A DNA stretch of 64,000 nucleotides from Escherichia coli (GTDB taxonomy: Bacteria > Pseudomonadota > Gammaproteobacteria > Enterobacterales > Enterobacteriaceae). Both the position numbers and the translations under genes were made by a program. Location: NCBI RefSeq assembly GCF_003019035.1, contig NZ_CP027447.1; one strand, given 5' to 3'. Of this stretch, positions 6,191 through 33,967 are shown one piece after another. How positions within the stretch are numbered: position 1 is the first letter of the stretch; every line of letters begins with the position of its first letter. The notes beneath the pieces were generated by a model. It was not told where the DNA came from. It saw only the letters and a list, made by a program, of their open reading frames with translations, and ran no database searches.

Positions 6191-6254
6191 TGGTTTCATC
6201 CCTGAATGTCAGCGCCAAAGACTGACAATAACCAAAGCAGCTATAGTAAGGTGC

Positions 6255-16703: not shown

Positions 16704-16870
16704 CCCGACTCCTTATTTATAAAGATAACTTATCGCTATTAGTTTACCTGAAGTTAACAGCTAAGTACTTACCTAATAATGCATCATAAGATGCTTGCAC
16801 AGGACTTACGTAACCATGCCCCATTTGGTACTATCTAAGCCCTTTTCACTACAAAGAAGTAATGCCTACT

Positions 16871-18945: not shown

Positions 18946-19044
18946 AAATTCCTAAAGTTGTTTTCTTGCGATTTTGTCTCTCTCTAACCCGCATAAATAC
19001 TGGTAGCATCAGCATTCAACTGGATAAAATTACAGGGATGCAGA

Positions 19045-22000
19045 ATGAGACACTTTATCTATCAGGACGAAAAATCACATAAATTCTGGGCGGTGGAGCA
19101 GCAGGGAAACGAGTTGCATATCTGTTGGGGAAAAGTTGGCACCAAAGGGCAAAACCAAGTAAAAAGTTTTGCGGATGCTGCGGCAGCGGCAAAAGCGGAG
19201 CTTAAGCTGATCGCGGAGAAGGTGAAGAAGGGATATGTGGAGCAAGCGAAGGATAATTCTTTGCAACCTTCCCAAACGGTAACGGACTCTCTCAAGGTAG
19301 CGGACTTATCCACCATTATTCAGGAACAACCCTCTTTCGTAGCAGAAACCCGTGCGGCTGACAAAAATACAGATGCTGTTTTACCGTGGCTGGCAAAAGA
19401 TATTGCTGTCGTTTTTCCGCTTGAAGTCGTACCCACCACCTTAAGCCATCGCCGCTTTCCCGGAGATCCTGTTACACCTGTAGATAAATTAACCCAGTTA
19501 CGTCGCTTAGCCTGTGGCGTGTCGCAACGGGATAACAAAACAGCTACATTTGACTTCAGCGCCTGTACTTTAGAGTGGCAAAACTTCATCGCTCAGGCGA
19601 TCGATCTGATTAACAGCCCGAAAACGACAAAATTACCATCACCGGTAATGGCTGTACTCGCGGCACTTGAACTGCACTGCACGAGATATAAAGAGCGTGA
19701 GGATGTTATGGATCAGATTATTCAGGAAGGCGGTCTGGAATATGCTACTGATGTAATAATACATCTTCAACAAATATCTATTGAATGGGATTATGTCAAC
19801 AATAATATTGTTTTCCTGTCGTCTGGCATTTCACCTGATTACTTGCAGCAATATTCCAGCTTTGAATTACGCCTACGTAAACATTTATCACTGGCGGAAG
19901 AGTCTCTCTGGCAAAAATGTGCACAAAAACTTATTGCCGCAGTTCCACATATTCCAGAATGGCGGCAACCATTAATTGCTTTGTTATTACCCGAAAAACC
20001 AGAAATTGCACATGAAATTGCCCAGCGTCTACTGGGGCAAAAGAAATTACCCTCGCTTGAGTGGCTAAAAATAGTGGCGACTGATGAGCACATTCTTGCC
20101 TCATTAGAAAAATATCACGAGCCATATGCCATTTTTGATGATTACTATTGTGGTGCGATATGGTCAGCCACCGTATTACAGGAGCAAGGTGTTGCAGCCC
20201 TGCCCCGATTTGCACCCTATGTCGCAAGTGACTACTGCGCCGATGTGTTGAGTCATATCAATCATCCGTTCGCATTAACACTGCTTATACGTGTAGCCGG
20301 GCATACTAAACGCTGTCACGATCGAATGACGAAAGCCTGCGCTGCGTTCCCACACGCAGCACTGGCAGCACTGGCGGAACTTCTAGTGCAAAAAGAAGAG
20401 AATAGTTGGCGCATTATGCTAATGACGATGCTTATCTCGCAACCTACACTAGCAGAACAGGTCATTCCCTGGCTTTCGACACCCGCAGTTGCAGTGCTGA
20501 AATCATGCCAGCAACAACTGAAACAGCCCTCAAACCATGCCAGTGCCGATCTACTGCCGGCCATAGTAGTCTCCCCACCATGGCTTTCGAAAAAGAAAAA
20601 ATCGCCGATTCCGGTGCTTGATTTAGCACCGCTCAACCTCGAATCCATATGCACAATAACCGACACAGAAGCTAAAGAGTTTCAAACTCATTGGGACTGG
20701 GAACCGCATAAGCCAGGTGAAGGTGCTAAAGATTTCCTTTACTCGCTGGGGTATCGCCGCTGGGATTTTGACACATATAAATATATCGGCGCTTCTGACT
20801 CGGCAATTGACGCATGGGAACGTGAGGACTTCGCTACACTCATCCAAATGTTTAAAGCCCACCATGCACCGTATCAGGGGGAGTGGCATCTCAACTCACT
20901 TCCCTTTTTACCTATGCAAAAAGCGATTAAACTATGGGAATTTCTCAGCAAAGAGCCGCATACCGCGGTAAAACCTGTCATGCTTTATTTGCGACTGGCA
21001 GGTATGAGTGGTTTTCTACACTCGTTTTCACGCTACCCTCAAGAAGGTTTTGCGGTTGCTAATTATTTTGCCGCAACGGAACTGGCTCCTGCCGTCGCCC
21101 GCGCCTTTAACAAACTCAAAACTCTACGACAAGACGCCCGCACCTGGCTGCTGAAATATCCGGAACATGCCATTACCGGCCTGTTGCCTGCGGCACTCGG
21201 CAAAGCCGGTGAATCCCAGGATAACGCCCGTGCCGCTTTACGTATGTTGATTGAAAATGGTTATCCGTCATTACTGCAAGAAATCGCCCAGCGTTATAAC
21301 CAGCCGGAAGTAACCGATGCGGTGAACGCTCTACTTGCGCTCGATCCCTTAGATAATCACCCGACTAAAATCCCGACACTTCCGGCCTTTTATCAGCCAT
21401 CGCTCTGGACGCGCCCGGTATTAAAAGCAAACGCCCAATCACTGCCAGATAGCGCCCTCTTCCACCTCGGTGAAATGCTCCGCTTCCCTCAGGAAGATAC
21501 GCTGTATCCGGGGTTATTACAGGTGAAAGACGCCTGTACTGCCGACTCACTGGCTGAGTTTGCCTGGGATCTGTTTACCGCCTGGCAGACCGCTGGCGTG
21601 CCGTCGAAAGAGAGCTGGGCGTTCACTGCATTAGGTGTTCTTGGCAACGATGACACCGCCCGCAAACTGACGCCATTAATCCGCGCCTGGCCTGGCGAAT
21701 CTCAGCATAAACGTGCCACCGTTGGGTTGGATATTCTCGCTGCTATCGGCAGCGATATCGCCCTGATGCAGCTTAACGGCATCGCCCAGAAACTGAAATT
21801 CAAAGCCTTACAGGAGCGGGCGAAAGAAAAAATTGCCGACATTGCCGAAAGTCGCGAACTCACAGTGGCAGAACTTGAAGATCGGTTAGCACCGGATCTC
21901 GGTCTGGATGATAACGGTTCGCTGCTGCTGGATTTCGGGCCACGGCAGTTCACCGTCAGCTTTGATGAAACCTTAAAACCGTTTGTGCGTGATGCTTCCG

Positions 22001-22833
22001 GCAGCCGCCTGAAAGACTTGCCTAAACCGAACAAAAGCGATGATGAAACCCAAGCGAACGATGCAGTTAACCGCTACAAACTGTTGAAAAAAGATGCGCG
22101 TACCGTTGCCGCCCAGCAGGTAGCAAGGCTGGAATCCGCCATGTGCCTGCGCCGCCGCTGGTCGCCGGAAAACTTTCAGCTCTTCCTGGTTGAGCATCCG
22201 CTGGTTCGCCACTTAACCCGCCGTCTGATTTGGGGCGTTTATAGCACCGAAAACGAGCTACTGGCTTGCTTTCGCGTGGCGGAAGATAACAGCTACAGCA
22301 CCGCAGACGATGATCTTTTCACCCTGCCGGAAGGCGATATCTCTGTTGGCATTCCTCACGTTCTGGAAATATCACCCACGGATGCTGCCGCCTTTGGTCA
22401 ACTTTTTGCCGACTACGAACTGCTACCGCCGTTCCGCCAGCTCGACCGTAACAGTTACGCCCTGACAGAAGCCGAGCGCAACGCCAGCGAACTGACCCGC
22501 TGGGCAGGCAGAAAATGCCCGAGCGGTCGGGTAATGGGGCTGGCGAATAAAGGCTGGATAAAGGGCACCCCGCAGGATGGAGGCTGGATCGGCTGGATGA
22601 TCAAACCTCTCGGTCGCTGGTCGTTAATCATGGAAATCAATGAAGGATTTGCAGTTGGTATGTCGCCAGCCGAACTCAGTGCCGAGCAACTCTTAAGTAA
22701 GCTGTGGCTATGGGAAGGCAAAGCGGAAAGCTATGGCTGGGGGAGCAATTCAACACAGGAAGCGCAGTTCTCCGTACTCGATGCCATCACCGCCAGCGAG
22801 CTAATTAACGATATTGAAGCCCTTTTTGAATAA
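19045..22833 (+). CDS. molR: Giant WGR-like-domain protein (1262 aa); intact molR-type ORF (pseudogene fragments in K-12)
   Basis: N-terminus FWAVEQQGNELHICWGKVGTKGQ.. fits a WGR-like domain; paralogous to the adjacent yehI over most of its length; continuous 3789-nt ORF without frameshift. Confidence 0.85.
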   Translation: MRHFIYQDEKSHKFWAVEQQGNELHICWGKVGTKGQNQVKSFADAAAAAKAELKLIAEKVKKGYVEQAKDNSLQPSQTVTDSLKVADLSTIIQEQPSFVAETRAADKNTDAVLPWLAKDIAVVFPLEVVPTTLSHRRFPGDPVTPVDKLTQLRRLACGVSQRDNKTATFDFSACTLEWQNFIAQAIDLINSPKTTKLPSPVMAVLAALELHCTRYKEREDVMDQIIQEGGLEYATDVIIHLQQISIEWDYVNNNIVFLSSGISPDYLQQYSSFELRLRKHLSLAEESLWQKCAQKLIAAVPHIPEWRQPLIALLLPEKPEIAHEIAQRLLGQKKLPSLEWLKIVATDEHILASLEKYHEPYAIFDDYYCGAIWSATVLQEQGVAALPRFAPYVASDYCADVLSHINHPFALTLLIRVAGHTKRCHDRMTKACAAFPHAALAALAELLVQKEENSWRIMLMTMLISQPTLAEQVIPWLSTPAVAVLKSCQQQLKQPSNHASADLLPAIVVSPPWLSKKKKSPIPVLDLAPLNLESICTITDTEAKEFQTHWDWEPHKPGEGAKDFLYSLGYRRWDFDTYKYIGASDSAIDAWEREDFATLIQMFKAHHAPYQGEWHLNSLPFLPMQKAIKLWEFLSKEPHTAVKPVMLYLRLAGMSGFLHSFSRYPQEGFAVANYFAATELAPAVARAFNKLKTLRQDARTWLLKYPEHAITGLLPAALGKAGESQDNARAALRMLIENGYPSLLQEIAQRYNQPEVTDAVNALLALDPLDNHPTKIPTLPAFYQPSLWTRPVLKANAQSLPDSALFHLGEMLRFPQEDTLYPGLLQVKDACTADSLAEFAWDLFTAWQTAGVPSKESWAFTALGVLGNDDTARKLTPLIRAWPGESQHKRATVGLDILAAIGSDIALMQLNGIAQKLKFKALQERAKEKIADIAESRELTVAELEDRLAPDLGLDDNGSLLLDFGPRQFTVSFDETLKPFVRDASGSRLKDLPKPNKSDDETQANDAVNRYKLLKKDARTVAAQQVARLESAMCLRRRWSPENFQLFLVEHPLVRHLTRRLIWGVYSTENELLACFRVAEDNSYSTADDDLFTLPEGDISVGIPHVLEISPTDAAAFGQLFADYELLPPFRQLDRNSYALTEAERNASELTRWAGRKCPSGRVMGLANKGWIKGTPQDGGWIGWMIKPLGRWSLIMEINEGFAVGMSPAELSAEQLLSKLWLWEGKAESYGWGSNSTQEAQFSVLDAITASELINDIEALFE

Positions 22834-22842
22834 GGAAAGAGC

Positions 22843-25800
22843 ATGGACAAGGAATTACCGTGGCTGGCGGATAACGCGCAACTGGAACTGAAATATAAAA
22901 AGGGTAAAACACCACTCAGCCATCGCAATTGGCCGGGTGAACCGGTGCCTGTTATCACTGAAAGCATCATCCAGACACTGGGTGATGAATTGCTACACAT
23001 TGCTGAGAAGAAAAAAAACATTGTCTGGCGTTATGATAATTTTTCACTGGAGTGGCAGTCCGCCATCACGCAGGCCATCAACTTGATCGGCGAACACAAA
23101 CCCTCAATCCCGGCCCGGACAATGGCGGCGCTAGCCTGTATCGCGCAAAATGATAGCCAACAGTTACTCGACGAAATCGTCCAACAAGAGGGACTGGAAT
23201 ATGCGACTGAAGTGGTGATTGCACGCCAGTTTATTGTACGGTGTTATGAGAGTGATCCTCTGGTAGTAACATTGCAGTATCAGAAGGAGGACTATGGCTA
23301 TGGCTATGGCTATGGCTATGGCTATGGCTATGGTTATCGCTCAGAAACCTATAACGAATTCGATCTCCGACTGCGTAAGCATCTCTCTCTGGCAGAGGAA
23401 AGCTGCTGGCAGCGTTGCGCCGACAAACTCATTGCCGCACTGCCAGGACTACCCCAAGTTCGCCGTCCTTTTATTGCACTCATCCTCCCGGAAAAACCAG
23501 AAATCGCCAATGAGTTGGTAGGCCTTGAATGCCCGTGGACTCATTTTCATTCTAAGGAGTGGTTAAAAGTTGTTGCTACTGACCACAGGGCAGTGGGAAA
23601 ACTCGAACGCTACTGGAGCCAGGATATATTTAGCGATCGCGAAGCCAGCTACATGTCGCATGAAAACCACTTCGGCTACGCGGCCTGCGCCGCCCTTTTG
23701 CGCGAACAAGGAATTGCAGCCGTTCCACGCCTCGCGATGTATGCCCATAAAGAAGATTGCGGTAGCCTGCTGGTACAAATTAACCATCCGCAGGTCATCC
23801 GCACCCTGCTGTTAGTTGCTGATAAAAACAAACCCAGCCTGCAACGTGTGGCTAAATACAGTAAAAACTTCCCCCATGCGACGCTTGCCGCACTGGCAGA
23901 GCTTCTGGCGTTAAAAGAACCGCCTGCACGCCCTGGTTATCCAATCATCGAAGACAAAAAGCTGCCTGCACAGCAAAAAGCTCGAGATGAATACTGGCGT
24001 ACGCTGTTACAAACGCTGATGGCATCGCAGCCACAACTGGCAGAAGAGGTGATGCCGTGGTTAAGTACTCAAGCCCAGGCAGTGCTGAATAGTTATTTAT
24101 CGGCACCGCCCAAAACGGTTATTGATAGCACCGATAACATCCAAATGCCTGAAATCCTCGTTTCACCACCGTGGCGTAGTAAGAAAAAAATGACAGTTCC
24201 ACGTCTTGATTTGGCACCGTTCGAATTAACGCCGCAAGTTTACTGGCAACCAGGCGAACGAGAGAGGCTTGCCGCCACTGAGTCTGCCCGTTATTTCAGC
24301 ACGGAATCTCTTGCGGAACGCATGGAACAAAAAAGTGGACGAGTTGTATTACAGGAGCTGGGTTTTGGAGATGATGTATGGCTGTTTTTGAATTATATAC
24401 TCCCCGGAAAACTGGATGCTGCACGCAATTCACTCATTGTTCAGTGGCATTACTACCCAGGGCGGGTTGAAGAGATCATGAATGGCTGGAGCTCCCCGGA
24501 AGCTCAATTAGCAGAACAGGCGCTTCGCAACGGTCACGTAGAAGTGTTAATTAACATATGGGAAAATGACAGCTACTCACGCTATCGTCGGGAAAAGAGT
24601 ATCTGGAACCTGTATTTATTGGCGCAGTTGCCGCGTGAGATGGCTTTGACTTTCTGGCTACGTATCAATGAGAAAAAGCATCTGTCTGCGGGTGAGGACT
24701 ATTATCTCAGTATCTTCGGATTGGATGCTCTACCAGGTCTGCTGTTGGCTTTTTCACATCGTCCAAAAGAAACATTTCCATTAATTTTAAATTTCGGCGC
24801 AACAGAACTGGCCCTGCCCGTTGCCCGCGTCTGGCGACGTTTCGCGGCGCAGCGTGATCTGGCTCGCCAGTGGATTTTACATTGGCCGGAACATACAGCT
24901 ACTGCACTTATCCCTCTTGTCTTCACCAAATCCAGCGATAATAGCGAAGCTGCATTACTTGCCCTGCGTTTACTTTACGAACAGGGACATGGCGAGTTAC
25001 TGCAAACCGTGGCAAACCGCTGGCAGCGTACAGATGTGTGGCCTGCCCTGGAGCAATTACTTAAACAGAGTCCAATAGAGATTTACCCGACACGCATTCC
25101 AAAAGCCCCTGATTTCTGGCAGCCGGCAATGTGGTCCAGGCCGCGCCTTATCACGAATAATCAACCTGTTACCGATGACGCTCTGGAAATTATCGGCGAA
25201 ATGCTGTGCTTTACCCAGGGCGGACGTTTTTATAGCGGACTGGAACAACTGAAAACTTTCTGCCAGCCGCAAACGCTGGCAGCTTTTGCCTGGGATCTCT
25301 TCACCGCGTGGCAACAAGCTGGTGCTACCGCAAAAGACAACTGGGCATTTCTGGCGTTAAGTCTCTTTGGCGACGAAAGCACGGCACGGGATCTGACGAC
25401 ACAGATCCTTGCCTGGCCACAAGAGGGCAAATCTGCCCGTGCTGTCAGTGGTCTGAATATACTTACTCAGATGAATAATGATATGGCACTGATACAGCTG
25501 CATCATATATCGCAACGGGCGAAATCCCGCCCCTTACGTGATAACGCGGCGGAATTTCTTCAGGTGGTCGCAGAAAATCGTGGGCTAAGCCAGGAACAGT
25601 TAGCGGACAGATTAGTCCCAACACTGGGTCTTGATGATCCGCAGGCGTTGAGTTTTGATTTTGGTCCCCGGCAGTTTACCGTTCGCTTTGATGAAAACCT
25701 TAACCCGGTTATCTTTGATCAGCAAAACGTTCGCCAGAAAAGCGTTCCCCGGTTGCGCGCCGATGACGATCAACTGAAAGCGCCCGAGGCACTGGCCCGA

Positions 25801-26505
25801 CTAAAAGGGCTAAAAAAAGATGCCACTCAGGTGAGCAAAAACCTGCTCCCACGTCTTGAAACTGCCCTGCGCACCACCCGACGCTGGTCGCTGGCAGATT
25901 TTCATTCTCTGTTTGTTAATCATCCCTTTACCCGCCTGGTTACTCAGCGATTGATATGGGCGGTTTATCCGGCAAATGAACCGCGTCGTTTACTCAACGC
26001 CTTTCGTGTGGCCGCTGAGGGGGAGTTCTGCAATGAGCAAGATGAGCCAATTGACCTGCCTGCCGATGCTCTGATTGGCATTGCCCACCCGTTAGAAATG
26101 ACAGCAGAAATGCGCAGTGAATTTGCACAGCTTTTTGCCGATTACGAAATTATGCCGCCTTTTCGCCAGTTGACGCGGCGCACAGTGCTGCTCACGCCTG
26201 ACGAGTCAGCCAGTAATAGTTTGAATCGCTGGGAAGGTAAATCTGCTACCGTTGGGCAGCTTATGGGAATGCGATACAAAGGCTGGGAGTCAGGCTATGA
26301 GAACGCATTTGTCTATGACCTGGGCGAGTACCGGCTGGTCCTTAAGTTTTCATCCGGTTTTAACCACTACAATGTTGATAGCAAAGCGCTAATGAGCTTC
26401 CGTTCTCTTCATGTATACCGTGACAATAAATCTGTCACTTTTGCCGAACTTGATGTGTTTGATTTGAGTGAAGCGTTAAGCGCACCCGACGTCATTTTCC
26501 ATTAA
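22843..26505 (+). CDS. yehI: Giant uncharacterised protein (1220 aa), tandem paralog of molR; C-terminal region of the type annotated DUF4132
   Basis: AAGGAAAGA RBS; shares blocks with molR (..QEGLEYATEVVI.., ..DLRLRKHLSLAEES.., ..GPRQFTVRFDE.., ..LFADYEIMPPFRQL..); contains in-frame Tyr-Gly repeat. Confidence 0.88.
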   Translation: MDKELPWLADNAQLELKYKKGKTPLSHRNWPGEPVPVITESIIQTLGDELLHIAEKKKNIVWRYDNFSLEWQSAITQAINLIGEHKPSIPARTMAALACIAQNDSQQLLDEIVQQEGLEYATEVVIARQFIVRCYESDPLVVTLQYQKEDYGYGYGYGYGYGYGYRSETYNEFDLRLRKHLSLAEESCWQRCADKLIAALPGLPQVRRPFIALILPEKPEIANELVGLECPWTHFHSKEWLKVVATDHRAVGKLERYWSQDIFSDREASYMSHENHFGYAACAALLREQGIAAVPRLAMYAHKEDCGSLLVQINHPQVIRTLLLVADKNKPSLQRVAKYSKNFPHATLAALAELLALKEPPARPGYPIIEDKKLPAQQKARDEYWRTLLQTLMASQPQLAEEVMPWLSTQAQAVLNSYLSAPPKTVIDSTDNIQMPEILVSPPWRSKKKMTVPRLDLAPFELTPQVYWQPGERERLAATESARYFSTESLAERMEQKSGRVVLQELGFGDDVWLFLNYILPGKLDAARNSLIVQWHYYPGRVEEIMNGWSSPEAQLAEQALRNGHVEVLINIWENDSYSRYRREKSIWNLYLLAQLPREMALTFWLRINEKKHLSAGEDYYLSIFGLDALPGLLLAFSHRPKETFPLILNFGATELALPVARVWRRFAAQRDLARQWILHWPEHTATALIPLVFTKSSDNSEAALLALRLLYEQGHGELLQTVANRWQRTDVWPALEQLLKQSPIEIYPTRIPKAPDFWQPAMWSRPRLITNNQPVTDDALEIIGEMLCFTQGGRFYSGLEQLKTFCQPQTLAAFAWDLFTAWQQAGATAKDNWAFLALSLFGDESTARDLTTQILAWPQEGKSARAVSGLNILTQMNNDMALIQLHHISQRAKSRPLRDNAAEFLQVVAENRGLSQEQLADRLVPTLGLDDPQALSFDFGPRQFTVRFDENLNPVIFDQQNVRQKSVPRLRADDDQLKAPEALARLKGLKKDATQVSKNLLPRLETALRTTRRWSLADFHSLFVNHPFTRLVTQRLIWAVYPANEPRRLLNAFRVAAEGEFCNEQDEPIDLPADALIGIAHPLEMTAEMRSEFAQLFADYEIMPPFRQLTRRTVLLTPDESASNSLNRWEGKSATVGQLMGMRYKGWESGYENAFVYDLGEYRLVLKFSSGFNHYNVDSKALMSFRSLHVYRDNKSVTFAELDVFDLSEALSAPDVIFH
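23293..23334 (+). repeat. In-frame hexanucleotide microsatellite (TATGGC)6 + TATGGT encoding a (Tyr-Gly)n tract inside yehI
   Basis: Six perfect TATGGC units 23293-23328 plus one TATGGT, in the yehI reading frame; absent from the paralogous position in molR. Confidence 0.9.
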
Positions 26506-26565: not shown

Positions 26566-26886
26566 ATGATCGTGCAAAAAGAGCTGGTCACTATTTACGA
26601 TTATGAGGCCCCTGTACCTGAAGAGCCGTTTTCCTTCAGACTTGAGATCCATAAATGCTCTGAATTATTTACAGGTTCCATCTACCGGCTGGAGCGATTC
26701 CGGCTACATCCAACATTTCATCAACGTGATCGAGAGGATATCGACCCGCTAATAAATGATGCGTTGATTTATATAAGAGATGAGTTTATTGATGAGCGAA
26801 AATTACGGGGCGAATCACCAGAAACGGTAATAGCCATTTTTAATCGTGAACTACAGAATATATTCAACCAAGAAATAGAAAAATAG
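26566..26886 (+). CDS. yehK: Small acidic protein of unknown function, 106 aa
   Basis: ORF with GGGGGAAGCG upstream; no recognisable motif; recalled as YehK. Confidence 0.8.
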   Translation: MIVQKELVTIYDYEAPVPEEPFSFRLEIHKCSELFTGSIYRLERFRLHPTFHQRDREDIDPLINDALIYIRDEFIDERKLRGESPETVIAIFNRELQNIFNQEIEK

Positions 26887-26940: not shown

Positions 26941-27030
26941 TTACTTCAACAAATCAATCAGCCGTAACAGAGCCACTAATAACTCCAGTACGGCAATGAG
27001 CACGGTTAACTTTTGTGTCAGCGTGTCCAT
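26941..27030 (-). CDS. zorO: 29-aa hydrophobic peptide, type I toxin-like (ZorO-like)
   Basis: Minus-strand ATG (27028-27030) with AAGGAGAG SD; translates to MDTLTQKLTVLIAVLELLVALLRLIDLLK, a single predicted TM helix; matches my recollection of ZorO from O157:H7; long structured 5' leader with an antisense target site. Confidence 0.65.
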   Translation of the reverse strand: MDTLTQKLTVLIAVLELLVALLRLIDLLK

Positions 27031-27211
27031 CCGCTCTCCTTATTAAGGAGCGCAACACCAGCATCTTACCCTTACACTGCCTGTCGATACTGGTTTACGT
27101 ATGTTGGACCACGATGTTGCACTCCGGATCAGGGCACTACCTGCGGCACCACCCGTCCGGTAGCCAGGACTTGAAATGGGTTCGATCCGGCGCAACGTCC
27201 CAACAGTCAGG

Positions 27212-27262
27212 ATTATAAATCTCATTATCTTAATTGCAACGGGGTCCACCGATGGTTATAAT
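27212..27262. promoter_or_regulatory. Back-to-back sigma70-like promoters sharing one palindromic -35 hexamer (TTGCAA): minus-strand promoter for the toxin mRNA and plus-strand promoter for the antisense sRNA
   Basis: Plus: TTGCAA (27234-27239) -17 nt- TATAAT (27257-27262); minus: TTGCAA -16 nt- TATAAT (complement of 27212-27217); the minus promoter predicts a ~170-nt 5' UTR for the toxin. Confidence 0.55.
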
Positions 27263-27268
27263 TCGTTC

Positions 27269-27352
27269 GTTGGAACACGATGTTGCACAGGCCGTGGTGT
27301 TAGGCCTGAAAGTAGTAAATAAAAGAACCTGCCTCACCAGCAGGTTTTTTTA
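27269..27352 (+). ncRNA. orzO: Candidate antitoxin sRNA (OrzO-like), ~80 nt, divergent from the toxin gene
   Basis: Starts ~7 nt after TATAAT; 5' seed GTTGGAACACGATGTTGCAC (27269-27288) is 19/20 identical to 27103-27122, so it is complementary to the toxin mRNA leader; internal hairpin CAGGCC..GGCCTG; ends in intrinsic terminator. Confidence 0.55.
27326..27352 (+). terminator. Rho-independent terminator of the candidate sRNA
   Basis: AACCTGC-ctcacca-GCAGGTT stem-loop followed by TTTTTTT. Confidence 0.8.
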
Positions 27353-27462: not shown

Positions 27463-28551
27463 ATGTCACCGCAGAATAATCATCTGCAGCGTCCGCCTGC
27501 CGCTGTGTTATACGCCGATGAACTGGCAAAATTAAAACAAAATGATCACGCACCTTGCCCGCCCGGTTGGCAGTTAAGTTTGCCTGCGGCCCGTGTTTTT
27601 ATCCTTGGCGACGAAGCACAAAATATTAGCCGTAAAGTCGTGATTAGCCCCTCCGCTGTCGAACGCATGTTAGTCACTCTCGCTACCGGGCGCGGTTTGA
27701 TGTTGGTGGGGGAACCTGGCACCGCAAAATCGCTCCTGTCTGAATTACTGGCAACCGCTATTAGCGGCGATGCCGGGTTAACCATCCAGGGCGGCGCATC
27801 TACTACTGAAGATCAAATCAAGTACGGCTGGAACTACGCCCTGCTTATCAACCATGGTCCGTCAACGGAAGCACTGGTCCCTGCCCCGCTTTACCAGGGA
27901 ATGCGCGACGGCAAAATCGTCCGTTTTGAAGAGATAACGCGTACACCGCTGGAAGTACAAGACTGTCTGTTAGGTATGCTTTCTGACAGGGTGATGACGG
28001 TGCCGGAGCTCACCGCTGAAGCCAGTCAGCTCTATGCGCGGGAAGGCTTTAATATTATTGCCACTGCCAATACCCGCGATCGCGGCGTCAATGAAATGAG
28101 TGCTGCGCTAAAGCGTCGTTTCGATTTTGAAACTGTCTTTCCGATTATGGATTTCGCTCAGGAGCTGGAGCTTGTCGCCAGTGCTTCGGCGCGTTTGCTG
28201 GCCCATAGCGGTATTCCGCATAAAGTGCCTGACGCGGTACTGGAGTTACTGGTCCGCACCTTCCGCGATCTGCGTGCCAACGGCGAAAAGAAAACGTCAA
28301 TGGATACACTAACAGCGATTATGTCCACCGCTGAAGCCGTGAACGTGGCCCACGCTGTGGGCGTCCGCGCCTGGTTTTTAGCGAATCGCGCAGGTGAGCC
28401 AGCCGATCTGGTGGACTGTATTGCCGGAACCATCGTCAAAGATAACGAAGAAGATCGCGCGCGTCTGCGCCGTTACTTCGAACAGCGAGTCGCCACACAT
28501 AATGAAGCTCACTGGCAGGCTTATTATCAAGCTCGCCACCGCCTGCCGTGA
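27463..28551 (+). CDS. yehL: MoxR-like AAA+ ATPase (CbbQ/NirQ/NorQ-type), 362 aa
   Basis: Walker A LMLVGEPGTAKS, Walker B-like KIVRFEEITR; start ATG 27463 (MSPQNNHLQRPP..) chosen over ORF-track 27397. Confidence 0.9.
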   Translation: MSPQNNHLQRPPAAVLYADELAKLKQNDHAPCPPGWQLSLPAARVFILGDEAQNISRKVVISPSAVERMLVTLATGRGLMLVGEPGTAKSLLSELLATAISGDAGLTIQGGASTTEDQIKYGWNYALLINHGPSTEALVPAPLYQGMRDGKIVRFEEITRTPLEVQDCLLGMLSDRVMTVPELTAEASQLYAREGFNIIATANTRDRGVNEMSAALKRRFDFETVFPIMDFAQELELVASASARLLAHSGIPHKVPDAVLELLVRTFRDLRANGEKKTSMDTLTAIMSTAEAVNVAHAVGVRAWFLANRAGEPADLVDCIAGTIVKDNEEDRARLRRYFEQRVATHNEAHWQAYYQARHRLP

Positions 28552-28561
28552 GGAAAGATGC

Positions 28562-30841
28562 ATGAGCGAGCCGTTAATTGTCGGCATCCGGCATCATAGT
28601 CCGGCCTGCGCCCGGCTGGTGAAATCGTTAATCGAAAGCCAGCGGCCACGATACGTGTTGATTGAAGGCCCGGCTGATTTTAATGACCGGGTAGACGAAC
28701 TGTTGTTAGCCCACCAGCTTCCGGTAGCTATTTACAGTTATTGCCAGTATCAGGATGGTGCGGCCCCCGGGCGTGGTGCCTGGACGCCATTTGCTGAATT
28801 TTCGCCGGAGTGGCAGGCGCTACAAGCCGCACGTCGTATTCAGGCACAAACTTACTTCATCGATTTGCCTTGCTGGGCACAAAGTGAAGAAGAGGACGAT
28901 TCGCCTGATACGCAAGAGGAAAGCCAGACCTTGCTGCTGCGTGCCACCCGCATGGATAACAGCGACACCCTGTGGGATCACTTGTTCGAAGATGAAAGCC
29001 AGCAAACTGCATTACCCTCTGCACTGGCGCACTATTTTGCCCAACTGCGGGGCGACGCCTCCGGCGATGCACTCAATCGTCAGCGCGAAGCCTTTATGGC
29101 CCGCTGGATTGCATGGGCGATGCAGCAAAATAATGGCGACGTATTAGTCGTCTGCGGAGGCTGGCACGCTCCGGCACTGGCAAAAATGTGGCGCGAATGC
29201 CCGCAAGAAATTAACACGCCAGAATTGCTCTTACTGGATGATGCCGTTACAGGTTGCTATCTCACGCCATACAGTGAAAAGCGCCTTGATGTGCTGGCAG
29301 GATACCTTTCAGGAATGCCTGCCCCGGTCTGGCAAAACTGGTGCTGGCGGTGGGGCTTGCAGCAGGCAGGTGAACAACTGCTGAAAACGGTTCTTACCCG
29401 TTTGCGCCAGCACCACTTGCCTGCTTCAACAGCGGATATGGCTGCCGCTCATCTGCATGCGATGGCACTGGCACAGTTGCGCGGTCATACACTACCGTTA
29501 CGCACTGACTGGCTGGATGCCATAGCAGGATCGCTGATTAAAGAAGCCCTGAATGCGCCGTTGCCGTGGAGCTATCGCGGCGTTATTCATCCCGATACCG
29601 ATCCGATTCTGCTAACGTTGATAGACACATTAGCGGGTGACGGATTCGGTAAACTTGCCCCTTCTACGCCACAACCGCCTCTGCCAAAAGATGTCACCTG
29701 CGAACTGGAACGTACCGCAATCTCTCTTCCGGCGGAGCTTACCTTAAATCGCTTTACCTCCGATGGACTGGCGCAAAGTCAGGTGTTACATCGGCTGGTA
29801 ATACTGGAGATCCCAGGGGTTGTGCGCCAGCAGGGAAGTACACTGACACTTGCAGGCAACGGTGAAGAACGCTGGAAATTAACCCGCCCGCTTAGCCAAC
29901 ATGCGGCATTAATTGAGGCCGCCTGCTTTGGTGCCACACTCCAGGAAGCCGCACGCCATAAATTAGAAGCCGATATGCTGGACGCGGGTGGAATCGGCAG
30001 TATCACCACATGTCTTAGCCAGGCGGCGTTAGCGGGTCTGGCGTCCTTCAGTCAACAATTACTGGAGCAACTTACATTATTAATCGCCCAGGAAAATCAG
30101 TTTGCCGAAATGGGCCAGGCGCTGGAAGTGCTATACGCCTTATGGCGGCTGGATGAAATTAGCGGTATGCAAGGCGCGCAGATATTACAGACGACGTTAT
30201 GCGCAGCTATCGATCGCACACTCTGGCTGTGTGAATCCAACGGCAGACCGGATGAAAAGGAGTTTCACGCTCACCTGCATAGCTGGCAAGCGCTTTGCCA
30301 TATCCTGCGCGATCTACATAGCGGCGTTAATTTACCCGGCGTTTCGCTTTCTGCGGCGGTAGCCTTACTGGAGCGCCGCAGTCAGGCGATTCATGCCCCG
30401 GCGCTGGATCGCGGCGCGGCTCTTGGCGCACTAATGCGTCTGGAACATCCCAACGCCAGTGCCGAAGCGGCGCTGACGATGCTGGCGCAGTTATCCCCGG
30501 CACAATCCGGCGAGGCGCTGCACGGTTTGCTGGCATTAGCCCGTCATCAACTGGCCTGTCAGCCGGCATTTATCGCCGGTTTCAGTAGTCATTTAAATCA
30601 ACTGAGTGACGACGATTTTATTAACGCCCTGCCCGATTTACGCGCGGCGATGGCCTGGCTACCACCACGAGAACGCGGGACGCTGGCGCATCAGGTGCTT
30701 GAGCATTACCAGCTCGCACAGCTTCCCATTTCAGCGCTGCAAATGCCGTTGCATTGTCCACCGCAAGCCATTGCACATCATCAACAACTCGAACAGCAGG
30801 CACTGGCATCGCTGCAACACTGGGGAGTTTTCCATGTCTGA
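28562..30841 (+). CDS. yehM: Large uncharacterised protein (759 aa), second gene of the yehLMPQ cassette
   Basis: ATG 10 nt after yehL stop with GAGGAAAGA RBS; Ala/Leu-rich, no motif I can recognise by eye; stop overlaps yehP start. Confidence 0.85.
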   Translation: MSEPLIVGIRHHSPACARLVKSLIESQRPRYVLIEGPADFNDRVDELLLAHQLPVAIYSYCQYQDGAAPGRGAWTPFAEFSPEWQALQAARRIQAQTYFIDLPCWAQSEEEDDSPDTQEESQTLLLRATRMDNSDTLWDHLFEDESQQTALPSALAHYFAQLRGDASGDALNRQREAFMARWIAWAMQQNNGDVLVVCGGWHAPALAKMWRECPQEINTPELLLLDDAVTGCYLTPYSEKRLDVLAGYLSGMPAPVWQNWCWRWGLQQAGEQLLKTVLTRLRQHHLPASTADMAAAHLHAMALAQLRGHTLPLRTDWLDAIAGSLIKEALNAPLPWSYRGVIHPDTDPILLTLIDTLAGDGFGKLAPSTPQPPLPKDVTCELERTAISLPAELTLNRFTSDGLAQSQVLHRLVILEIPGVVRQQGSTLTLAGNGEERWKLTRPLSQHAALIEAACFGATLQEAARHKLEADMLDAGGIGSITTCLSQAALAGLASFSQQLLEQLTLLIAQENQFAEMGQALEVLYALWRLDEISGMQGAQILQTTLCAAIDRTLWLCESNGRPDEKEFHAHLHSWQALCHILRDLHSGVNLPGVSLSAAVALLERRSQAIHAPALDRGAALGALMRLEHPNASAEAALTMLAQLSPAQSGEALHGLLALARHQLACQPAFIAGFSSHLNQLSDDDFINALPDLRAAMAWLPPRERGTLAHQVLEHYQLAQLPISALQMPLHCPPQAIAHHQQLEQQALASLQHWGVFHV

Positions 30842-31970
30842 ACTGAACGATCTTCTGACCACCCGTGAGCTACAACGCTGGCGATTAATTCTTGGCGAAG
30901 CGGCAGAAACGACGCTTTGTGGGCTGGATGACAACGCCCGGCAGATAGACCACGCGCTGGAGTGGCTGTACGGGCGCGATCCTGAACGGCTCCAGCGTGG
31001 TGAACGCTCTGGTGGATTAGGTGGCTCAAATCTCACCACCCCTGAGTGGATCAACAGTATTCACACGCTGTTTCCGCAACAGGTGATTGAGCGACTGGAA
31101 AGCGATGCCGTACTGCGCTACGGCATTGAAGATGTGGTGACGAATCTCGACGTGCTGGAACGTATGCAGCCTTCTGAAAGCCTGCTACGCGCCGTTTTGC
31201 ACACCAAACATCTGATGAATCCCGAAGTACTGGCTGCCGCCCGCCAGATAGTGCGCCAGGTTGTTGAAGAAATTATGGCTCGACTGGCAAAGGAAGTTCG
31301 TCAGGCTTTTTCTGGTGTCCGCGATCGCCGTCGCCGCTCATTTATTCCACTGGCGCGAAACTTTGATTTCAAAAGTACTCTGCGCGCCAACCTGCAACAC
31401 TGGCACCCGCAACACGGCAAGTTGTATATCGAATCCCCCCGCTTTAACAGCCGCATTAAACGCCAAAGCGAACAATGGCAACTGGTCTTACTGGTTGATC
31501 AAAGCGGATCAATGGTGGACTCGGTGATCCACTCAGCGGTGATGGCGGCCTGTTTATGGCAGTTACCCGGTATTCGTACCCATCTGGTGGCGTTTGACAC
31601 CAGCGTGGTTGATCTCACGGCAGACGTTGCCGATCCGGTAGAGTTATTAATGAAAGTGCAATTAGGCGGCGGAACCAATATCGCCAGTGCCATGGAATAT
31701 GGTCGGCAACTTATTGAACAACCAGCGAAAAGCGTCATTATCCTCGTGAGTGATTTTTATGAAGGGGGTTCATCATCATTGCTGACGCATCAGGTGAAAA
31801 AGTGTGTCCAGAGCGGCATCAAAGTGCTGGGGCTGGCAGCGCTCGACAGCACCGCAACGCCTTGCTATGACCGCGATATGGCCCAGGCGCTGGTTAATGT
31901 TGGCGCACAAATAGCCGCAATGACACCGGGTGAACTGGCTACCTGGCTTGCGGAGAATTTGCAGTCATGA
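30834..31970 (+). CDS. yehP: von Willebrand factor A (VWA) domain protein with MIDAS motif, 378 aa
   Basis: ATGTCTGA overlap with yehM stop; MIDAS-like LVLLVDQSGSM (DxSxS); ORF-track 5' extension rejected. Confidence 0.9.
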   Translation: MSELNDLLTTRELQRWRLILGEAAETTLCGLDDNARQIDHALEWLYGRDPERLQRGERSGGLGGSNLTTPEWINSIHTLFPQQVIERLESDAVLRYGIEDVVTNLDVLERMQPSESLLRAVLHTKHLMNPEVLAAARQIVRQVVEEIMARLAKEVRQAFSGVRDRRRRSFIPLARNFDFKSTLRANLQHWHPQHGKLYIESPRFNSRIKRQSEQWQLVLLVDQSGSMVDSVIHSAVMAACLWQLPGIRTHLVAFDTSVVDLTADVADPVELLMKVQLGGGTNIASAMEYGRQLIEQPAKSVIILVSDFYEGGSSSLLTHQVKKCVQSGIKVLGLAALDSTATPCYDRDMAQALVNVGAQIAAMTPGELATWLAENLQS

Positions 31971-33967
31971 ATTCACTACGTCCGGAATTATTAGAACTGA
32001 CGCCGCAGGCCCTGACGGCGTTAAGCAATGCCGGTTTTGTTAAGCGCAGTCTTAAGGAACTGGAAAATGGCAACGTCCCGGAAATCAGCCATGAGAACGG
32101 CGCTTTAATCGCCACCTTCAGTGACGGTGTCCGTACCCAACTGGCGAGCGGTCAGGCACTGAAAGAGGCCCGGTGCAGTTGCGGGGCCAGCGGCATGTGC
32201 CGCCATCGCGTGATGCTGGTGTTAAGTTATCAGCGACTTTGCGCCACCACTCAGCCCACGGAAAAAGAAGAAGAGTGGCAGCCTGCAATCTGGCTGGAAG
32301 AACTGGCTACCCTGCCCGATGCCACCCGCAAACGTGCACAGGCGCTGGTCGCTAAAGGCATCACCATTGAGTTATTCTGTGCGCCGGGCGAAATTCCCTC
32401 AGCCCGCTTACCGATGAGTGACGTGCGTTTTTATTCCCGCAGCAGCATTCGCTTCGCCCGCTGTGATTGCATTGAAGGAACGCTGTGTGAACATGTCGTA
32501 CTGGCGGTACAGGCCTTTGTCCAGGCCAAAACTCAGCAGGCGGAATTTACTCATTTAATCTGGCAGATGCGCAGCGAACACGTCACATCATCTGACGATC
32601 CGTTTGCCAGCGAAGAAGGCAACGCGTGTCGTCAATATGTTCAGCAATTAAGCCAGGCATTATGGCTTGGCGGCATCAGCCAGCCGCTTATTCACTACGA
32701 GGCCGCTTTCAGCCGCGCGCAGCAAGCGGCAGAGGCCTGCAACTGGCGCTGGGTGAGTGAGTCACTACGACAGCTACGGGCAAGCGTTGATGCCTTCCAC
32801 GCCCGCGCCAGTCACTATCATGCCGGAGAATGCTTACGTCAGCTTGCGGTATTAAACAGTCGATTAAATTGCGCACAAGAGATGGCGCGCCGCGACAGTA
32901 TCAGTGAAGTTCCTCCCATGCCGTGGCGAACGGTGGTTGGCGCAGGCATTGCTGGCGAAGCAAAGCTTGATCATTTGCGGCTGGTGTCGCTAGGTATGCG
33001 TTGCTGGCAGGATATTGAGCAGTATGGTTTACGCATCTGGTTTACCGATCCCGACACCGGCAGTATTTTGCACCTTTCGCGCAGTTGGCCGCGAAGTGAA
33101 CAGGAAAACTCACCGGCAGCGACGCGTCGGCTGTTGAGTTTTCAGGCAGGCGCGCTGGCGGGTGGACAAATTGTTTCACAGGCAGCGCGTCGCAGTGCCG
33201 AAGGCGAACTGCTATTCGCGACCCGCAACCGCTTAAGTAGCGTTGTGCCGCTGTCGCCAGACGCCTGGAAAATGCTGAGTGCGCCGCTGCGCCAGCCAGG
33301 CATTGTGGCTTTACGTGAATATTTACGCCAGCGTCCCCCCGCCTGCATACGACCACTCAACCAGGTCGATAACTTATTTATTCTGCCAGTCGCTGAGTGT
33401 ATTTCACTCGGTTGGGATAGCAGCCGCCAGACACTGGATGCGCAGGTAATCAGCGGCGAAGGTGAAGATAACGTGCTGACATTATCCCTACCAGCCTCTG
33501 CCTGTTCGCCCTTTGCTGTTGAACGCATGGCGGCGCTTTTGCAACAAACAGACGACCCCGTGAGTCTGGTTTCTGGCTTTGTCAGCTTTGTAGAGGGGCA
33601 ATTGACACTGGAACCACGGGTGATGATGACAAAAACCCGCGCCTGGGCGCTGGACGCAGAAACTGCGCCTGTAGCACCGCTACCTTCTGCCAGCGTTTTG
33701 CCTGTGCCGTCTACCGCTCATCAGTTGCTGATGCGCTGCCAGGCGTTACTTATTCAACTGCTCCATAACGGCTGGCGCTATCAGGAACAGAGTGCTATTG
33801 GTCAGGCAGAGTTGCTGGCGAATGACCTCACCGCGGTGGGTTTTTATCGGCTGGCACATGTGTTGGGACAATTTCGTAATACAGAAAGCGAGGCACGGGT
33901 AGAAGCAATGAATAACGGTGTTTTGCTTTGCGAACAATTATTCCCCATGCTTCAGCAACAAGGATGA
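31967..33967 (+). CDS. yehQ: SWIM zinc-finger protein, 666 aa
   Basis: ATGA overlap with yehP stop; two CxCxnCxH SWIM-type motifs (ARCSCGASGMCRHRV and ARCDCIEGTLCEHVV) in the N-terminal third. Confidence 0.88.
   Translation: MNSLRPELLELTPQALTALSNAGFVKRSLKELENGNVPEISHENGALIATFSDGVRTQLASGQALKEARCSCGASGMCRHRVMLVLSYQRLCATTQPTEKEEEWQPAIWLEELATLPDATRKRAQALVAKGITIELFCAPGEIPSARLPMSDVRFYSRSSIRFARCDCIEGTLCEHVVLAVQAFVQAKTQQAEFTHLIWQMRSEHVTSSDDPFASEEGNACRQYVQQLSQALWLGGISQPLIHYEAAFSRAQQAAEACNWRWVSESLRQLRASVDAFHARASHYHAGECLRQLAVLNSRLNCAQEMARRDSISEVPPMPWRTVVGAGIAGEAKLDHLRLVSLGMRCWQDIEQYGLRIWFTDPDTGSILHLSRSWPRSEQENSPAATRRLLSFQAGALAGGQIVSQAARRSAEGELLFATRNRLSSVVPLSPDAWKMLSAPLRQPGIVALREYLRQRPPACIRPLNQVDNLFILPVAECISLGWDSSRQTLDAQVISGEGEDNVLTLSLPASACSPFAVERMAALLQQTDDPVSLVSGFVSFVEGQLTLEPRVMMTKTRAWALDAETAPVAPLPSASVLPVPSTAHQLLMRCQALLIQLLHNGWRYQEQSAIGQAELLANDLTAVGFYRLAHVLGQFRNTESEARVEAMNNGVLLCEQLFPMLQQQG

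What the first reader, a model, noticed from the sequence alone, without database searches (positions are those of the whole stretch)
27463..33967. yehLMPQ: translationally coupled MoxR-AAA+ / unknown giant / VWA-MIDAS / double-SWIM cassette of unknown function
Four co-directional genes are tightly coupled: yehM starts 10 nt after yehL, yehM/yehP overlap by 8 nt (ATGTCTGA) and yehP/yehQ by 4 nt (ATGA), which points to stoichiometric co-expression. YehL carries Walker A GEPGTAKS and a MoxR-like Walker B. YehP has a MIDAS-type DQSGSM motif. YehQ has two CxCxnCxH SWIM zinc-finger motifs. YehM (759 aa) has no motif I can recognise. MoxR ATPases usually act with a cognate VWA partner as remodelling chaperones; adding a SWIM protein (a nucleic-acid or protein-interaction Zn module) and a large unknown subunit suggests a dedicated multi-protein machine. 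To my knowledge no function has been assigned. Stress sensing or anti-phage conflict are hypotheses only.
Basis: partly seen in the sequence, partly recalled or inferred. Interest (0 to 1): 0.8.

Follow-up and report, generated by a model that had tools for sequence, protein, structure and literature searches.

The report
MoxR–VWA machine with WGR and SWIM partners
The E. coli yehLMPQ genes are real and tightly packed, but they are only part of a five-family ATP-driven protein machine, conserved from E. coli to actinomycetes, whose job is still unknown and whose parts point to recognition of DNA or a DNA-bound target.

Summary
In detail: all four genes, their junctions and their motifs are as described. 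Pfam confirms AAA_5/MoxR for YehL, DUF5682 for YehM and CoxE-type VWA with a full MIDAS for YehP. SWIM support for YehQ is weak.

The cassette is larger than reported. In 80 loci from four phyla the order is DUF4132 protein(s), then L-M-P-Q, and in 52 loci a DUF4132 protein carries an N-terminal WGR domain. The upstream molR-like gene and yehI therefore probably belong to the system.

YehM is not featureless. Its model (pLDDT 94) has an N-terminal TraB/ChaN/erythromycin-esterase-like fold with conserved His and Glu residues, and a HEAT-like tail. It is fused to YehP in some lineages. YehQ has one universal SWIM, a second that is lineage-specific, and OB-like barrels.

No function is published and no PADLOC model matches. 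The locus is in 99.6% of complete E. coli genomes, yet 5 of 9 sampled strains, K-12 included, carry pseudogenes in it.

Best reading: a MoxR–VWA remodelling complex directed at a nucleic-acid-linked target, accessory and possibly conflict-related. It is a new variant of a known kind, and its function remains inferred.

The parts
19020..19035 (+). LexA-box-like site CTGGATAAAATTACAG, 10 nt upstream of the molR-like start codon. It is a possible SOS operator and its membership in the system is uncertain.
   Evidence: It has one mismatch to CTGT-N8-ACAG. That is not significant on its own: 22 such sites in the window against 17.6 expected. A preprint states that E. coli molR was described as part of the LexA regulon. 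Equivalent boxes are not enriched upstream of homologous loci in other taxa.
19045..22833 (+). molR-like gene: 1262-aa protein with an N-terminal WGR domain, an ARM/HEAT-like helical middle and a C-terminal DUF4132 domain. Proposed target-recognition subunit.
   Evidence: Pfam gives WGR at aa 6-69 (E 3.7e-17) and DUF4132 at aa 986-1171 (E 1.8e-51). WGR-DUF4132 proteins lie upstream of the MoxR gene in 52 of 80 loci. The family profile hits the WGR protein 2ra8 and designed ARM/HEAT repeat proteins in the PDB.
22843..26505 (+). yehI: 1220-aa DUF4132 paralogue without WGR. It contains a (YG)n tract.
   Evidence: Pfam DUF4132, E 1.2e-46. YehI-like ORFs occur in 74 of 80 loci, usually as 1-3 tandem copies on the same strand just upstream of the MoxR gene. 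E. coli strains carry 2 or 3 copies.
27463..28551 (+). yehL: MoxR-class AAA+ ATPase (YehL subfamily), the motor.
   Evidence: Pfam AAA_5, E 6.6e-34. It is present in 80 of 80 loci and is 58-90% identical across phyla. Walker A, the FEE Walker B, N203, R205 and K217-R218-R219 are invariant. The nearest solved relatives by sequence are midasin AAA modules (E 5e-15) and the MoxR protein 2r44.
27709..27732 (+). Walker A motif GEPGTAKS (YehL aa 83-90).
   Evidence: Read from the translation. Invariant in 40 of 40 homologues.
27919..27933 (+). Walker B variant VRFEE (YehL aa 153-157).
   Evidence: Read from the translation. V153, R154, F155, E156 and E157 are invariant.
28562..30841 (+). yehM: DUF5682 protein, proposed scaffold and possible hydrolase. 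It has an N-terminal TraB/ChaN/erythromycin-esterase-like alpha/beta domain (about aa 1-260), a middle alpha/beta region and a C-terminal HEAT-like solenoid.
30834..31970 (+). yehP: CoxE-type VWA protein with a complete MIDAS, proposed adaptor between the motor and its client.
   Evidence: Pfam VWA_CoxE, E 1.1e-71. It is present in 78 of 80 loci. D222, S224, S226, T256, T281 and D307 are invariant. Its length is constant at 376-398 aa in 77 homologues, so there is no appended effector domain.
31497..31511 (+). MIDAS motif DQSGS (YehP aa 222-226).
   Evidence: Read from the translation. Invariant.
31967..33967 (+). yehQ: SWIM protein with a helical bundle, OB-like beta barrels and a C-terminal helical bundle. 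Proposed second recognition subunit.
32174..32206 (+). SWIM motif 1, CSCGASGMCRH (YehQ aa 70-80).
   Evidence: C70, C72, C78 and H80 are invariant in 61 of 61 homologues. Pfam SWIM, E 0.0056.
32462..32494 (+). SWIM motif 2, CDCIEGTLCEH (YehQ aa 166-176), lineage-specific.
   Evidence: All four ligands are present in 29 of 61 homologues and all four are absent in the other 32, mostly actinobacterial. Pfam SWIM, E 0.21.

Best explanation
The locus encodes a multi-subunit, ATP-driven MoxR–VWA remodelling machine built from five protein families, not four.

Proposed roles of the parts:
- YehL forms the AAA+ ring (inferred from the family).
- YehP is the CoxE-type VWA adaptor. Its MIDAS site grips an acidic residue of a partner (inferred from the family).
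- YehM is bound to YehP, which is supported by natural M-P fusions. It contributes a HEAT-like scaffold and an N-terminal TraB/TIKI/erythromycin-esterase-like domain. The conserved His and Glu residues of that domain suggest a latent hydrolase, either a peptidase or an esterase (inferred from fold and conservation).
- YehQ (SWIM plus OB-like barrels) and the WGR-HEAT-DUF4132 proteins (MolR-like, YehI) are the fast-evolving subunits. The DUF4132 proteins also vary in copy number. Together they select the target, most likely DNA or a DNA-bound protein (inferred from domain types).

Proposed action: ATP hydrolysis by YehL, passed on through YehP, would reshape or release this assembly and so switch the YehM domain or the recognition subunits on or off.

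Proposed biological role: an accessory, horizontally moving system used in stress or genetic conflict, such as foreign DNA or DNA damage. It does not look like a housekeeping chaperone.

My rough probabilities:
- The five families work together as one MoxR-VWA machine: about 0.7.
- The target is nucleic-acid-linked: about 0.4.
- The role is conflict or defence: about 0.3.
For: Conserved five-family synteny across four phyla:
- L is in 80 of 80 loci, P in 78, Q in 76 and DUF4132 proteins in 74. WGR is found in 52 loci.
- Junctions are tight throughout. Median gaps are +2 nt (L-M), -16 nt (M-P) and -7 nt (P-Q).
- No other gene family recurs in the flanks.

The catalytic and binding sites are intact:
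- The ATPase motifs of YehL are invariant.
- The MIDAS of YehP is complete.

YehM and YehP are linked directly:
- Full-length M-P fusions define at least four separate 50%-identity clusters.
- One of them sits in the canonical gene context.

YehM has an enzyme-like domain:
- The conserved residues lie at the ends of strands.

Several domains point to nucleic acid:
- WGR, E 3.7e-17, plus a PDB hit to a WGR protein.
- One universal SWIM motif.
- OB-fold matches.

The motor is conserved and the recognition subunits are variable:
- Identity to the E. coli protein is 58-90% for L and 52-85% for P, against 29-69% for M, 24-91% for Q and 23-63% for I.
- Window versus K-12 dN/dS is 0.04 (yehL), 0.05 (yehP), 0.10 (yehM) and 0.19 (yehI).

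The system behaves as accessory:
- The locus is in 5403 of 5426 E. coli genomes.
- Yet 5 of 9 sampled strains have independent pseudogenes in it. The flanking chromosomal genes (yehR to osmF) show none.
- E. coli strains carry 2 or 3 DUF4132 copies.
- yehL and yehM are upregulated in an hns/stpA mutant.
- Copies occur on plasmids and chromids of Rhizobium, Streptomyces and Iodobacter.
Against: - There is no experimental datum on any subunit. Complex formation, ATPase activity, zinc binding and DNA binding are all inferred.
- None of the six proteins matches a PADLOC model.
- There is no classical toxic effector, and YehP carries no appended effector domain.
- The locus sits at a fixed chromosomal site in almost all E. 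coli, unlike typical defence islands.
- The 80 loci are the best tblastn matches to YehM, so more distant DUF5682 systems may have other partners. One does: a HEAT_2 protein replaces DUF4132 in a second set in L083.
Confidence: 0.45

Rival explanations
1. It is a dedicated maturation chaperone, like CoxD/CoxE, NorQ/NorD, CbbQ/CbbO or the CobS/CobT/CobN chelatase. In this reading the MoxR-VWA pair inserts a metal or cofactor into a client enzyme or activates it. The large DUF4132 or DUF5682 proteins would be the client or carrier.
Against: No enzyme or cofactor gene recurs next to the system in 80 loci. The partner proteins carry WGR, SWIM and OB-type modules rather than cofactor-binding ones. 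Core subunits are pseudogenes in 5 of 9 sampled E. coli strains, which fits poorly with a housekeeping maturation factor.
Confidence: 0.15
2. It is a DNA-damage-response remodeller. After SOS induction it is recruited by WGR and OB modules to broken or single-stranded DNA, where it removes or reshapes stalled protein-DNA complexes.
For: The domains are WGR, which in PARPs reads DNA breaks (established knowledge), SWIM and RPA-like OB folds. A LexA-box-like site lies 10 nt before the molR-like start codon. A preprint reports that molR was described in the LexA regulon. The same preprint reports that Deinococcus WGR and DUF4132 genes are strongly induced when the DdrO repressor is depleted.
Against: LexA or Cheo boxes are not enriched upstream of the homologous loci. 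They occur in 1 of 24 proteobacterial loci and 0 of 19 actinobacterial loci for the exact motif. The E. coli box is not significant by itself and lies 8.4 kb upstream of yehL, beyond a type I toxin-antitoxin locus and terminators. Repair factors are rarely lost as often as seen here.
Confidence: 0.15
3. It is a decaying relic in E. coli with no present function. It would be a horizontally acquired cassette that is silenced by H-NS and kept only by drift.
For: yehL and yehM are upregulated in an hns/stpA mutant. Independent frameshifts, stop codons and IS insertions occur in many strains, including K-12 and EDL933. A resistance transposon sits in the DUF4132 region in an ST131 sublineage.
Against: All genes are intact in this window and in 3 further sampled strains. 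dN/dS is 0.04-0.19. The locus is retained in 99.6% of genomes. Order, motifs and junctions are conserved across four phyla.
Confidence: 0.1

Closest known systems
MoxR AAA+ / VWA chaperone pairs (RavA-ViaA, CoxD-CoxE, NorQ-NorD, CbbQ-CbbO); YehL subfamily of MoxR
   Same: An AAA_5 MoxR-class ATPase is encoded next to a VWA protein with a MIDAS site, and YehP is of the CoxE type. YehL is the named type of one of the seven MoxR subfamilies.
   Different: No client enzyme is linked. Three further large families always accompany the pair: DUF5682, the SWIM protein and WGR-DUF4132. No member of the YehL subfamily has a solved structure or a described function in the papers searched.
MoxR-vWA-centric ternary conflict systems (VMAP, iSTAND, FtsH and beta-propeller classes; Kaur et al. 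2020, PMC7159879)
   Same: There is a MoxR-vWA core plus additional conserved large subunits, one of them mostly helical. The iSTAND class likewise has the CoxE-type N-terminal domain on its vWA protein. The extra subunits are variable or paralogous. The system is common in actinomycetes and myxobacteria.
   Different: None of the four defining third components is present. The vWA protein has no variable C-terminal effector domains. That paper does not mention SWIM, WGR, DUF4132, TraB or YehL. The only link is a weak Pfam bpMoxR hit (E 0.0024).
Midasin (Rea1/Mdn1)
   Same: By sequence, YehL is closest to midasin AAA modules among solved structures (E 5e-15). The overall parts list, an AAA_5 ring plus a long helical element plus a terminal MIDAS domain, is mirrored by L plus the M-P fusion proteins.
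TIKI / TraB / PrgY / GumN / erythromycin esterase / ChaN / RRSP / HopBA1 fold group
   Different: Identity is only 9-13%. There is no sequence-profile match and no Foldseek hit at E <= 0.001. The domain has a roughly 80-residue helical insert and is fused to a 500-residue scaffold. Catalysis is untested.

Membership tests
MoxR AAA+ ATPases (YehL subfamily) | AAA_5-type AAA+ domain | tested here: met
   Pfam AAA_5, E 6.6e-34, aa 79-220.
MoxR AAA+ ATPases (YehL subfamily) | Intact Walker A, Walker B, sensor and arginine residues | tested here: met
   GEPGTAKS, VRFEE, N203, R205 and K217-R218-R219 are invariant in 40 homologues. Walker B is FEE rather than the usual DE.
MoxR AAA+ ATPases (YehL subfamily) | Gene adjacent to a VWA-domain gene | tested here: met
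   A VWA_CoxE gene lies two genes downstream in 78 of 80 loci.
MoxR AAA+ ATPases (YehL subfamily) | Hexameric ring and ATPase activity stimulated by the VWA partner | not testable with these tools
   This needs biochemistry or multimer modelling.
VWA / MIDAS proteins, CoxE type | VWA fold with the CoxE-type N-terminal region | tested here: met
   Pfam VWA_CoxE, E 1.1e-71 over aa 151-372 (full model length), and VWA_2, E 2.6e-8.
VWA / MIDAS proteins, CoxE type | Complete MIDAS (DxSxS ... T ... D) | tested here: met
   D222, S224, S226, T256/T281 and D307 are invariant in 39 homologues.
SWIM zinc finger | CxCxnCxH signature | tested here: met
   Motif 1 is invariant in 61 of 61 homologues. Motif 2 is complete in 29 of 61 and wholly lost in the other 32.
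SWIM zinc finger | Significant match to the family profile | tested here: inconclusive
SWIM zinc finger | Zinc binding | not testable with these tools
   This needs metal analysis.
MoxR-vWA ternary conflict systems (Kaur et al. 2020) | MoxR plus vWA core pair | tested here: met
MoxR-vWA ternary conflict systems (Kaur et al. 2020) | Third component of VMAP, iSTAND, FtsH or beta-propeller type | tested here: not met
   The partners are DUF5682, a SWIM protein and WGR-DUF4132. That paper names none of them. VMAP-C itself could not be searched directly.
MoxR-vWA ternary conflict systems (Kaur et al. 2020) | Variable effector domains fused C-terminal to the vWA domain | tested here: not met
   YehP homologues are uniformly 376-398 aa and end with the VWA domain.
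Catalogued anti-phage defence systems (PADLOC-DB 2.0) | Match of any subunit to a defence-system model | tested here: not met
   There were 0 families at E <= 0.01 for all six proteins.
TIKI/TraB/EreA/ChaN fold group (YehM N-terminal domain) | Shared three-dimensional fold | tested here: met
TIKI/TraB/EreA/ChaN fold group (YehM N-terminal domain) | Equivalent catalytic His/Glu constellation | tested here: inconclusive
   H11, H12, E35, E83, E176 and H202 are conserved and lie at strand ends. No superposition on a known active site was possible.
TIKI/TraB/EreA/ChaN fold group (YehM N-terminal domain) | Sequence-profile relationship | tested here: not met
   The Pfam scan hit only DUF5682. PDB profile searches gave no such hit.
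WGR domain proteins | WGR domain profile match | tested here: met
   Pfam WGR, E 3.7e-17 in the molR-like protein. YehI has none. WGR is present in 65 ORFs of 52 loci.
LexA (SOS) regulon | Functional LexA operator at the promoter | tested here: inconclusive
   There is a one-mismatch box at 19020-19035 and a literature statement for molR. The box is not conserved in other taxa.

The most novel reading that the evidence does not exclude
The WGR-DUF4132 / MoxR / DUF5682 / VWA / SWIM cassette is a so far uncatalogued, widespread immune-like system against foreign or damaged DNA. WGR, SWIM and OB modules would detect the nucleic acid. The MoxR-VWA motor would set the threshold. A TraB/TIKI-like hydrolase in YehM would be the effector. 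It would be present in nearly every E. coli but broken in K-12, which would explain why it was missed.
Probability: 0.2. Interest if true: 0.85.

Novelty: new variant of a known kind. Interest (0 to 1): 0.6.

Why it matters
This is one of only two MoxR systems in E. coli and is present in 99.6% of complete genomes, yet it has no function, no structure and almost no literature.

- Showing that the unit has five families redefines what has to be studied together.
- Showing that YehM has an enzyme-like domain gives a concrete catalytic hypothesis to test.
- Showing that K-12 carries a broken copy explains why the standard model strain is unlikely to have been informative.
- If the system targets nucleic acids, it would link the MoxR-VWA motor class to DNA-directed functions. 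To my knowledge that class is so far associated with enzyme maturation and with predicted conflict systems.
- It would also offer a bacterial, split counterpart of the midasin design.

Tried and rejected
- PADLOC and NCBIfam scans of all six proteins gave no defence hit and only far-below-cutoff NCBIfam hits to GvpN, MadB, McrB and a cobaltochelatase subunit.
- Literature searches for yehL/M/P/Q, DUF5682, DUF4132, and WGR+SWIM+MoxR+vWA found nothing functional. One broad search was wasted on unrelated 'ternary' and 'swim' papers. Many 'yehL' hits are the author name Yehl.
- The Snider & Houry 2006 paper is not held, so what it says about gene neighbours rests on my memory and on PMC3893208.
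- PDB sequence-profile searches for YehM, its N-terminal domain, YehP and YehQ gave no meaningful hit.
- Foldseek of YehM against the PDB gave only weak solenoid matches.
- I tested whether SOS control is conserved by scanning for LexA or Cheo boxes upstream of the first DUF4132 gene. They are not enriched, so I demoted the SOS idea to a rival.
- I searched for a sixth conserved neighbour family and found none. YehK is restricted to Escherichia, so I left it out of the system.
- The phage collection gave one partial 27% hit, so the system is not phage-borne.
- E. coli singleton 'fusions' (P0001, P0003, P0010, P0013) were set aside as likely assembly or frameshift artefacts.
- The apparent M-Q fusion P0225 was not followed up.

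Full report
**1. The observation**

- yehL is 27463-28551.
- yehM is 28562-30841.
- yehP is 30834-31970.
- yehQ is 31967-33967.

The junctions are a 10-nt spacer, an 8-nt overlap (ATGTCTGA) and a 4-nt overlap (ATGA).

The quoted motifs are present: GEPGTAKS, a VRFEE Walker B, DQSGS and two CxCx5CxH motifs.

Pfam results:
- AAA_5, E 6.6e-34.
- VWA_CoxE, E 1.1e-71.
- DUF5682 for YehM, E 4.8e-97.
- SWIM only weakly, E 0.0056 and 0.21.

The window is E. coli. The region is 100% identical to strain SCU-301 and about 95% identical to K-12. The locus is present in 5403 of 5426 complete genomes.

**2. The unit is larger than four genes**

I built a YehM alignment (A1) and used it to fetch 80 loci from species-representative genomes. 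The loci come from gamma- and beta-proteobacteria, Myxococcota, Actinobacteria and Acidobacteriota.

Iterative HMM searches of all ORFs in these loci gave the following:
- YehL relatives in 80 of 80 loci.
- YehP relatives in 78.
- YehQ relatives in 76.
- YehI-like DUF4132 proteins in 74, typically as one to three tandem copies on the same strand directly upstream of L.

The commonest order is I-L-M-P-Q (32 loci), followed by III-L-M-P-Q (16 loci) and II-L-M-P-Q (7 loci).

In 52 loci a DUF4132 protein carries an N-terminal WGR domain. Where only one DUF4132 gene was detected, it usually carries WGR.

In the window the two upstream genes fit this pattern.
- The molR-like gene (19045-22833) is WGR plus DUF4132.
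- yehI (22843-26505) is DUF4132 only.

Junctions are tight throughout. Median gaps are +2 nt (L-M), -16 nt (M-P) and -7 nt (P-Q).

No other gene family recurs in the flanks. yehK is confined to Escherichia.

In E. coli the DUF4132 genes are separated from yehL by yehK and a 577-bp spacer that holds a zor-orz toxin-antitoxin locus. Co-transcription of the DUF4132 genes with yehLMPQ is therefore unlikely here. In most other genomes the DUF4132 gene lies close to L (median gap 35 nt).

Caveat: the 80 loci are the best matches to YehM. One more distant system has a HEAT_2 protein in place of DUF4132.

**3. What the parts are**

*YehL.*
- It is 58-90% identical between E. coli and the other phyla, and every ATPase motif is invariant.
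- Its nearest solved relatives by sequence are midasin AAA modules and a MoxR protein.

*YehP.*
- It has an invariant, complete MIDAS and a highly conserved N-terminal region.
- It never carries extra domains. Its length is 376-398 aa in 77 homologues.

*YehM.*
- The family comprises 2259 clusters at 50% identity.
- The model is confident, with pLDDT 94.2 and pTM 0.89.
- The residues conserved in 122 homologues are H11, H12, E35, E83, D101, E143, R175, E176 and H202. They lie at strand ends, as expected for an active site.
- Full-length M-P fusion proteins form at least four separate clusters. One lies in the canonical context. This argues that M and P interact physically.

*YehQ.*
- The model has pLDDT 90.7.
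- It has one SWIM motif that is invariant in 61 of 61 homologues.
- The second SWIM motif is all-present in 29 homologues and all-absent in 32.
- It also has helical bundles and beta barrels that match OB folds of the RPA, Stn1 and Teb1 type, and a 160-residue match to ZSWIM8.

*The DUF4132 family.*
- It is best conserved in its C-terminal third, where several Asp, His and Arg residues are invariant.
- Its N-terminal region matches WGR proteins, and a helical stretch (about aa 320-470) matches ARM/HEAT repeats.
- I could not fold it.

**4. How it evolves**

The motor pair is far more conserved than the other three families.

Between this strain and K-12, dN/dS is 0.04 (yehL), 0.05 (yehP), 0.10 (yehM) and 0.19 (yehI and yehK). 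All are under purifying selection.

Yet five of the nine E. coli genomes I inspected carry independent inactivating lesions.
- K-12: molR and yehQ.
- NRZ104446: yehL and yehM.
- EDL933: two DUF4132 genes, yehM, and yehQ cut by IS1203.
- NRG857C: yehI.
- EC9: yehI.

The chromosomal neighbours from yehR to osmF carry none. Nine genomes is a small sample.

Other observations on evolution and expression:
- The DUF4132 array has two or three copies, depending on the strain.
- yehL and yehM are upregulated in an hns/stpA mutant.
- An ST131 sublineage carries a resistance transposon in the DUF4132 region.
- Relatives occur on plasmids or chromids of Rhizobium, Streptomyces and Iodobacter, and hardly at all in phages.

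**5. Mechanism**

Shown:
- Five-family synteny.
- Intact ATPase and MIDAS sites.
- M-P fusions.
- The predicted folds.

Inferred:
- YehL forms a ring and YehP couples it to YehM.
- YehQ and the WGR-DUF4132 proteins choose the target, probably DNA or a DNA-bound protein.
- ATP hydrolysis remodels the assembly and controls a possible hydrolase in YehM.

The pattern of a conserved motor with variable recognition subunits (of which the DUF4132 proteins are also multi-copy) fits an accessory, conflict- or stress-related role better than a housekeeping chaperone. So do frequent loss, the de-repression of yehL and yehM in an hns/stpA mutant, and horizontal spread. This is indirect evidence.

An SOS link is possible. 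There is a LexA-like box at 19020-19035 and there are literature statements. But the link is not conserved in other taxa.

**6. Comparison with what is known**

The system is a member of the MoxR family (YehL subfamily) and of the CoxE-type VWA family.

It resembles the MoxR-vWA ternary conflict systems of Kaur et al. However, it fails two of their defining features: the type of the third component, and effector domains on the vWA protein. I therefore do not file it there.

It is absent from PADLOC.

The resemblance to midasin is an analogy supported only by AAA-module similarity.

**7. Verdict**

The function is still unknown, and I found no paper that assigns one.

I rate it a new variant of a known kind and give it interest 0.6. 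It is a near-universal E. coli system with a clear, testable architecture, but with no direct functional evidence so far.

Noticed in passing
window 26941-27351: The yehK-yehL spacer holds a zor-orz type I toxin-antitoxin locus. There is a 29-aa hydrophobic toxin ORF on the minus strand (26941-27030, MDTLTQKLTVLIAVLELLVALLRLIDLLK). There is an OrzO-P antitoxin RNA on the plus strand (27276-27351, Rfam 98.9 bits) with its terminator. Divergent sigma-70-like promoters lie at 27212-27262. A 19-nt near-repeat (27104-27122 and 27271-27289) would give the sRNA/5'-UTR pairing. The locus is known from O157:H7 and absent in K-12. It is present here as a single copy.
   Followed up: yes
window 23292-23341: A (CTATGG)x8.3 microsatellite inside yehI encodes a (YG)n tract. 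The K-12 alignment breaks at this point, and yehI length differs between strains, so the tract is probably polymorphic.
   Followed up: partly
window 31692-31707: [quoted passage not shown] The slippery part is kept, but the Shine-Dalgarno-like stimulator is weakened.
   Followed up: partly
window 26566-26886 (yehK): yehK (106 aa) has no Pfam, NCBIfam or PADLOC match. Among 80 loci it was found only in the two Escherichia loci. It is frameshifted in two of the nine sampled E. coli strains. It looks like an orphan gene inserted between the DUF4132 genes and yehL.
   Followed up: partly
L082 (K-12 MG1655) 3569-7364 and 16195-18195: In K-12 the WGR-DUF4132 gene (molR) is frameshifted and yehQ has an internal stop. 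The standard laboratory strain therefore lacks an intact system, and K-12 knockout data for these genes are hard to interpret.
   Followed up: yes
L083 9001-21543: One genome (GCA_022841245.1) has a DUF5682-VWA fusion gene in the canonical context. Directly downstream lies a second AAA_5 / DUF5682 / VWA_CoxE set, preceded by a 501-aa protein with no domain hit and a HEAT_2 protein instead of DUF4132. This suggests that the recognition modules are exchangeable.
   Followed up: no
P0225 (1185 aa): This protein matches YehM (model positions 79-720) followed by YehQ (positions 91-543) with no YehP part. It is either an M-Q fusion or a gene-calling artefact.
   Followed up: no
window 19020-19035: A LexA-box-like palindrome (CTGGATAAAATTACAG) lies 10 nt before the molR-like start codon. 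Its AT-rich spacer fits an SOS operator, but the match is not significant alone and is not conserved in other taxa.
   Followed up: partly
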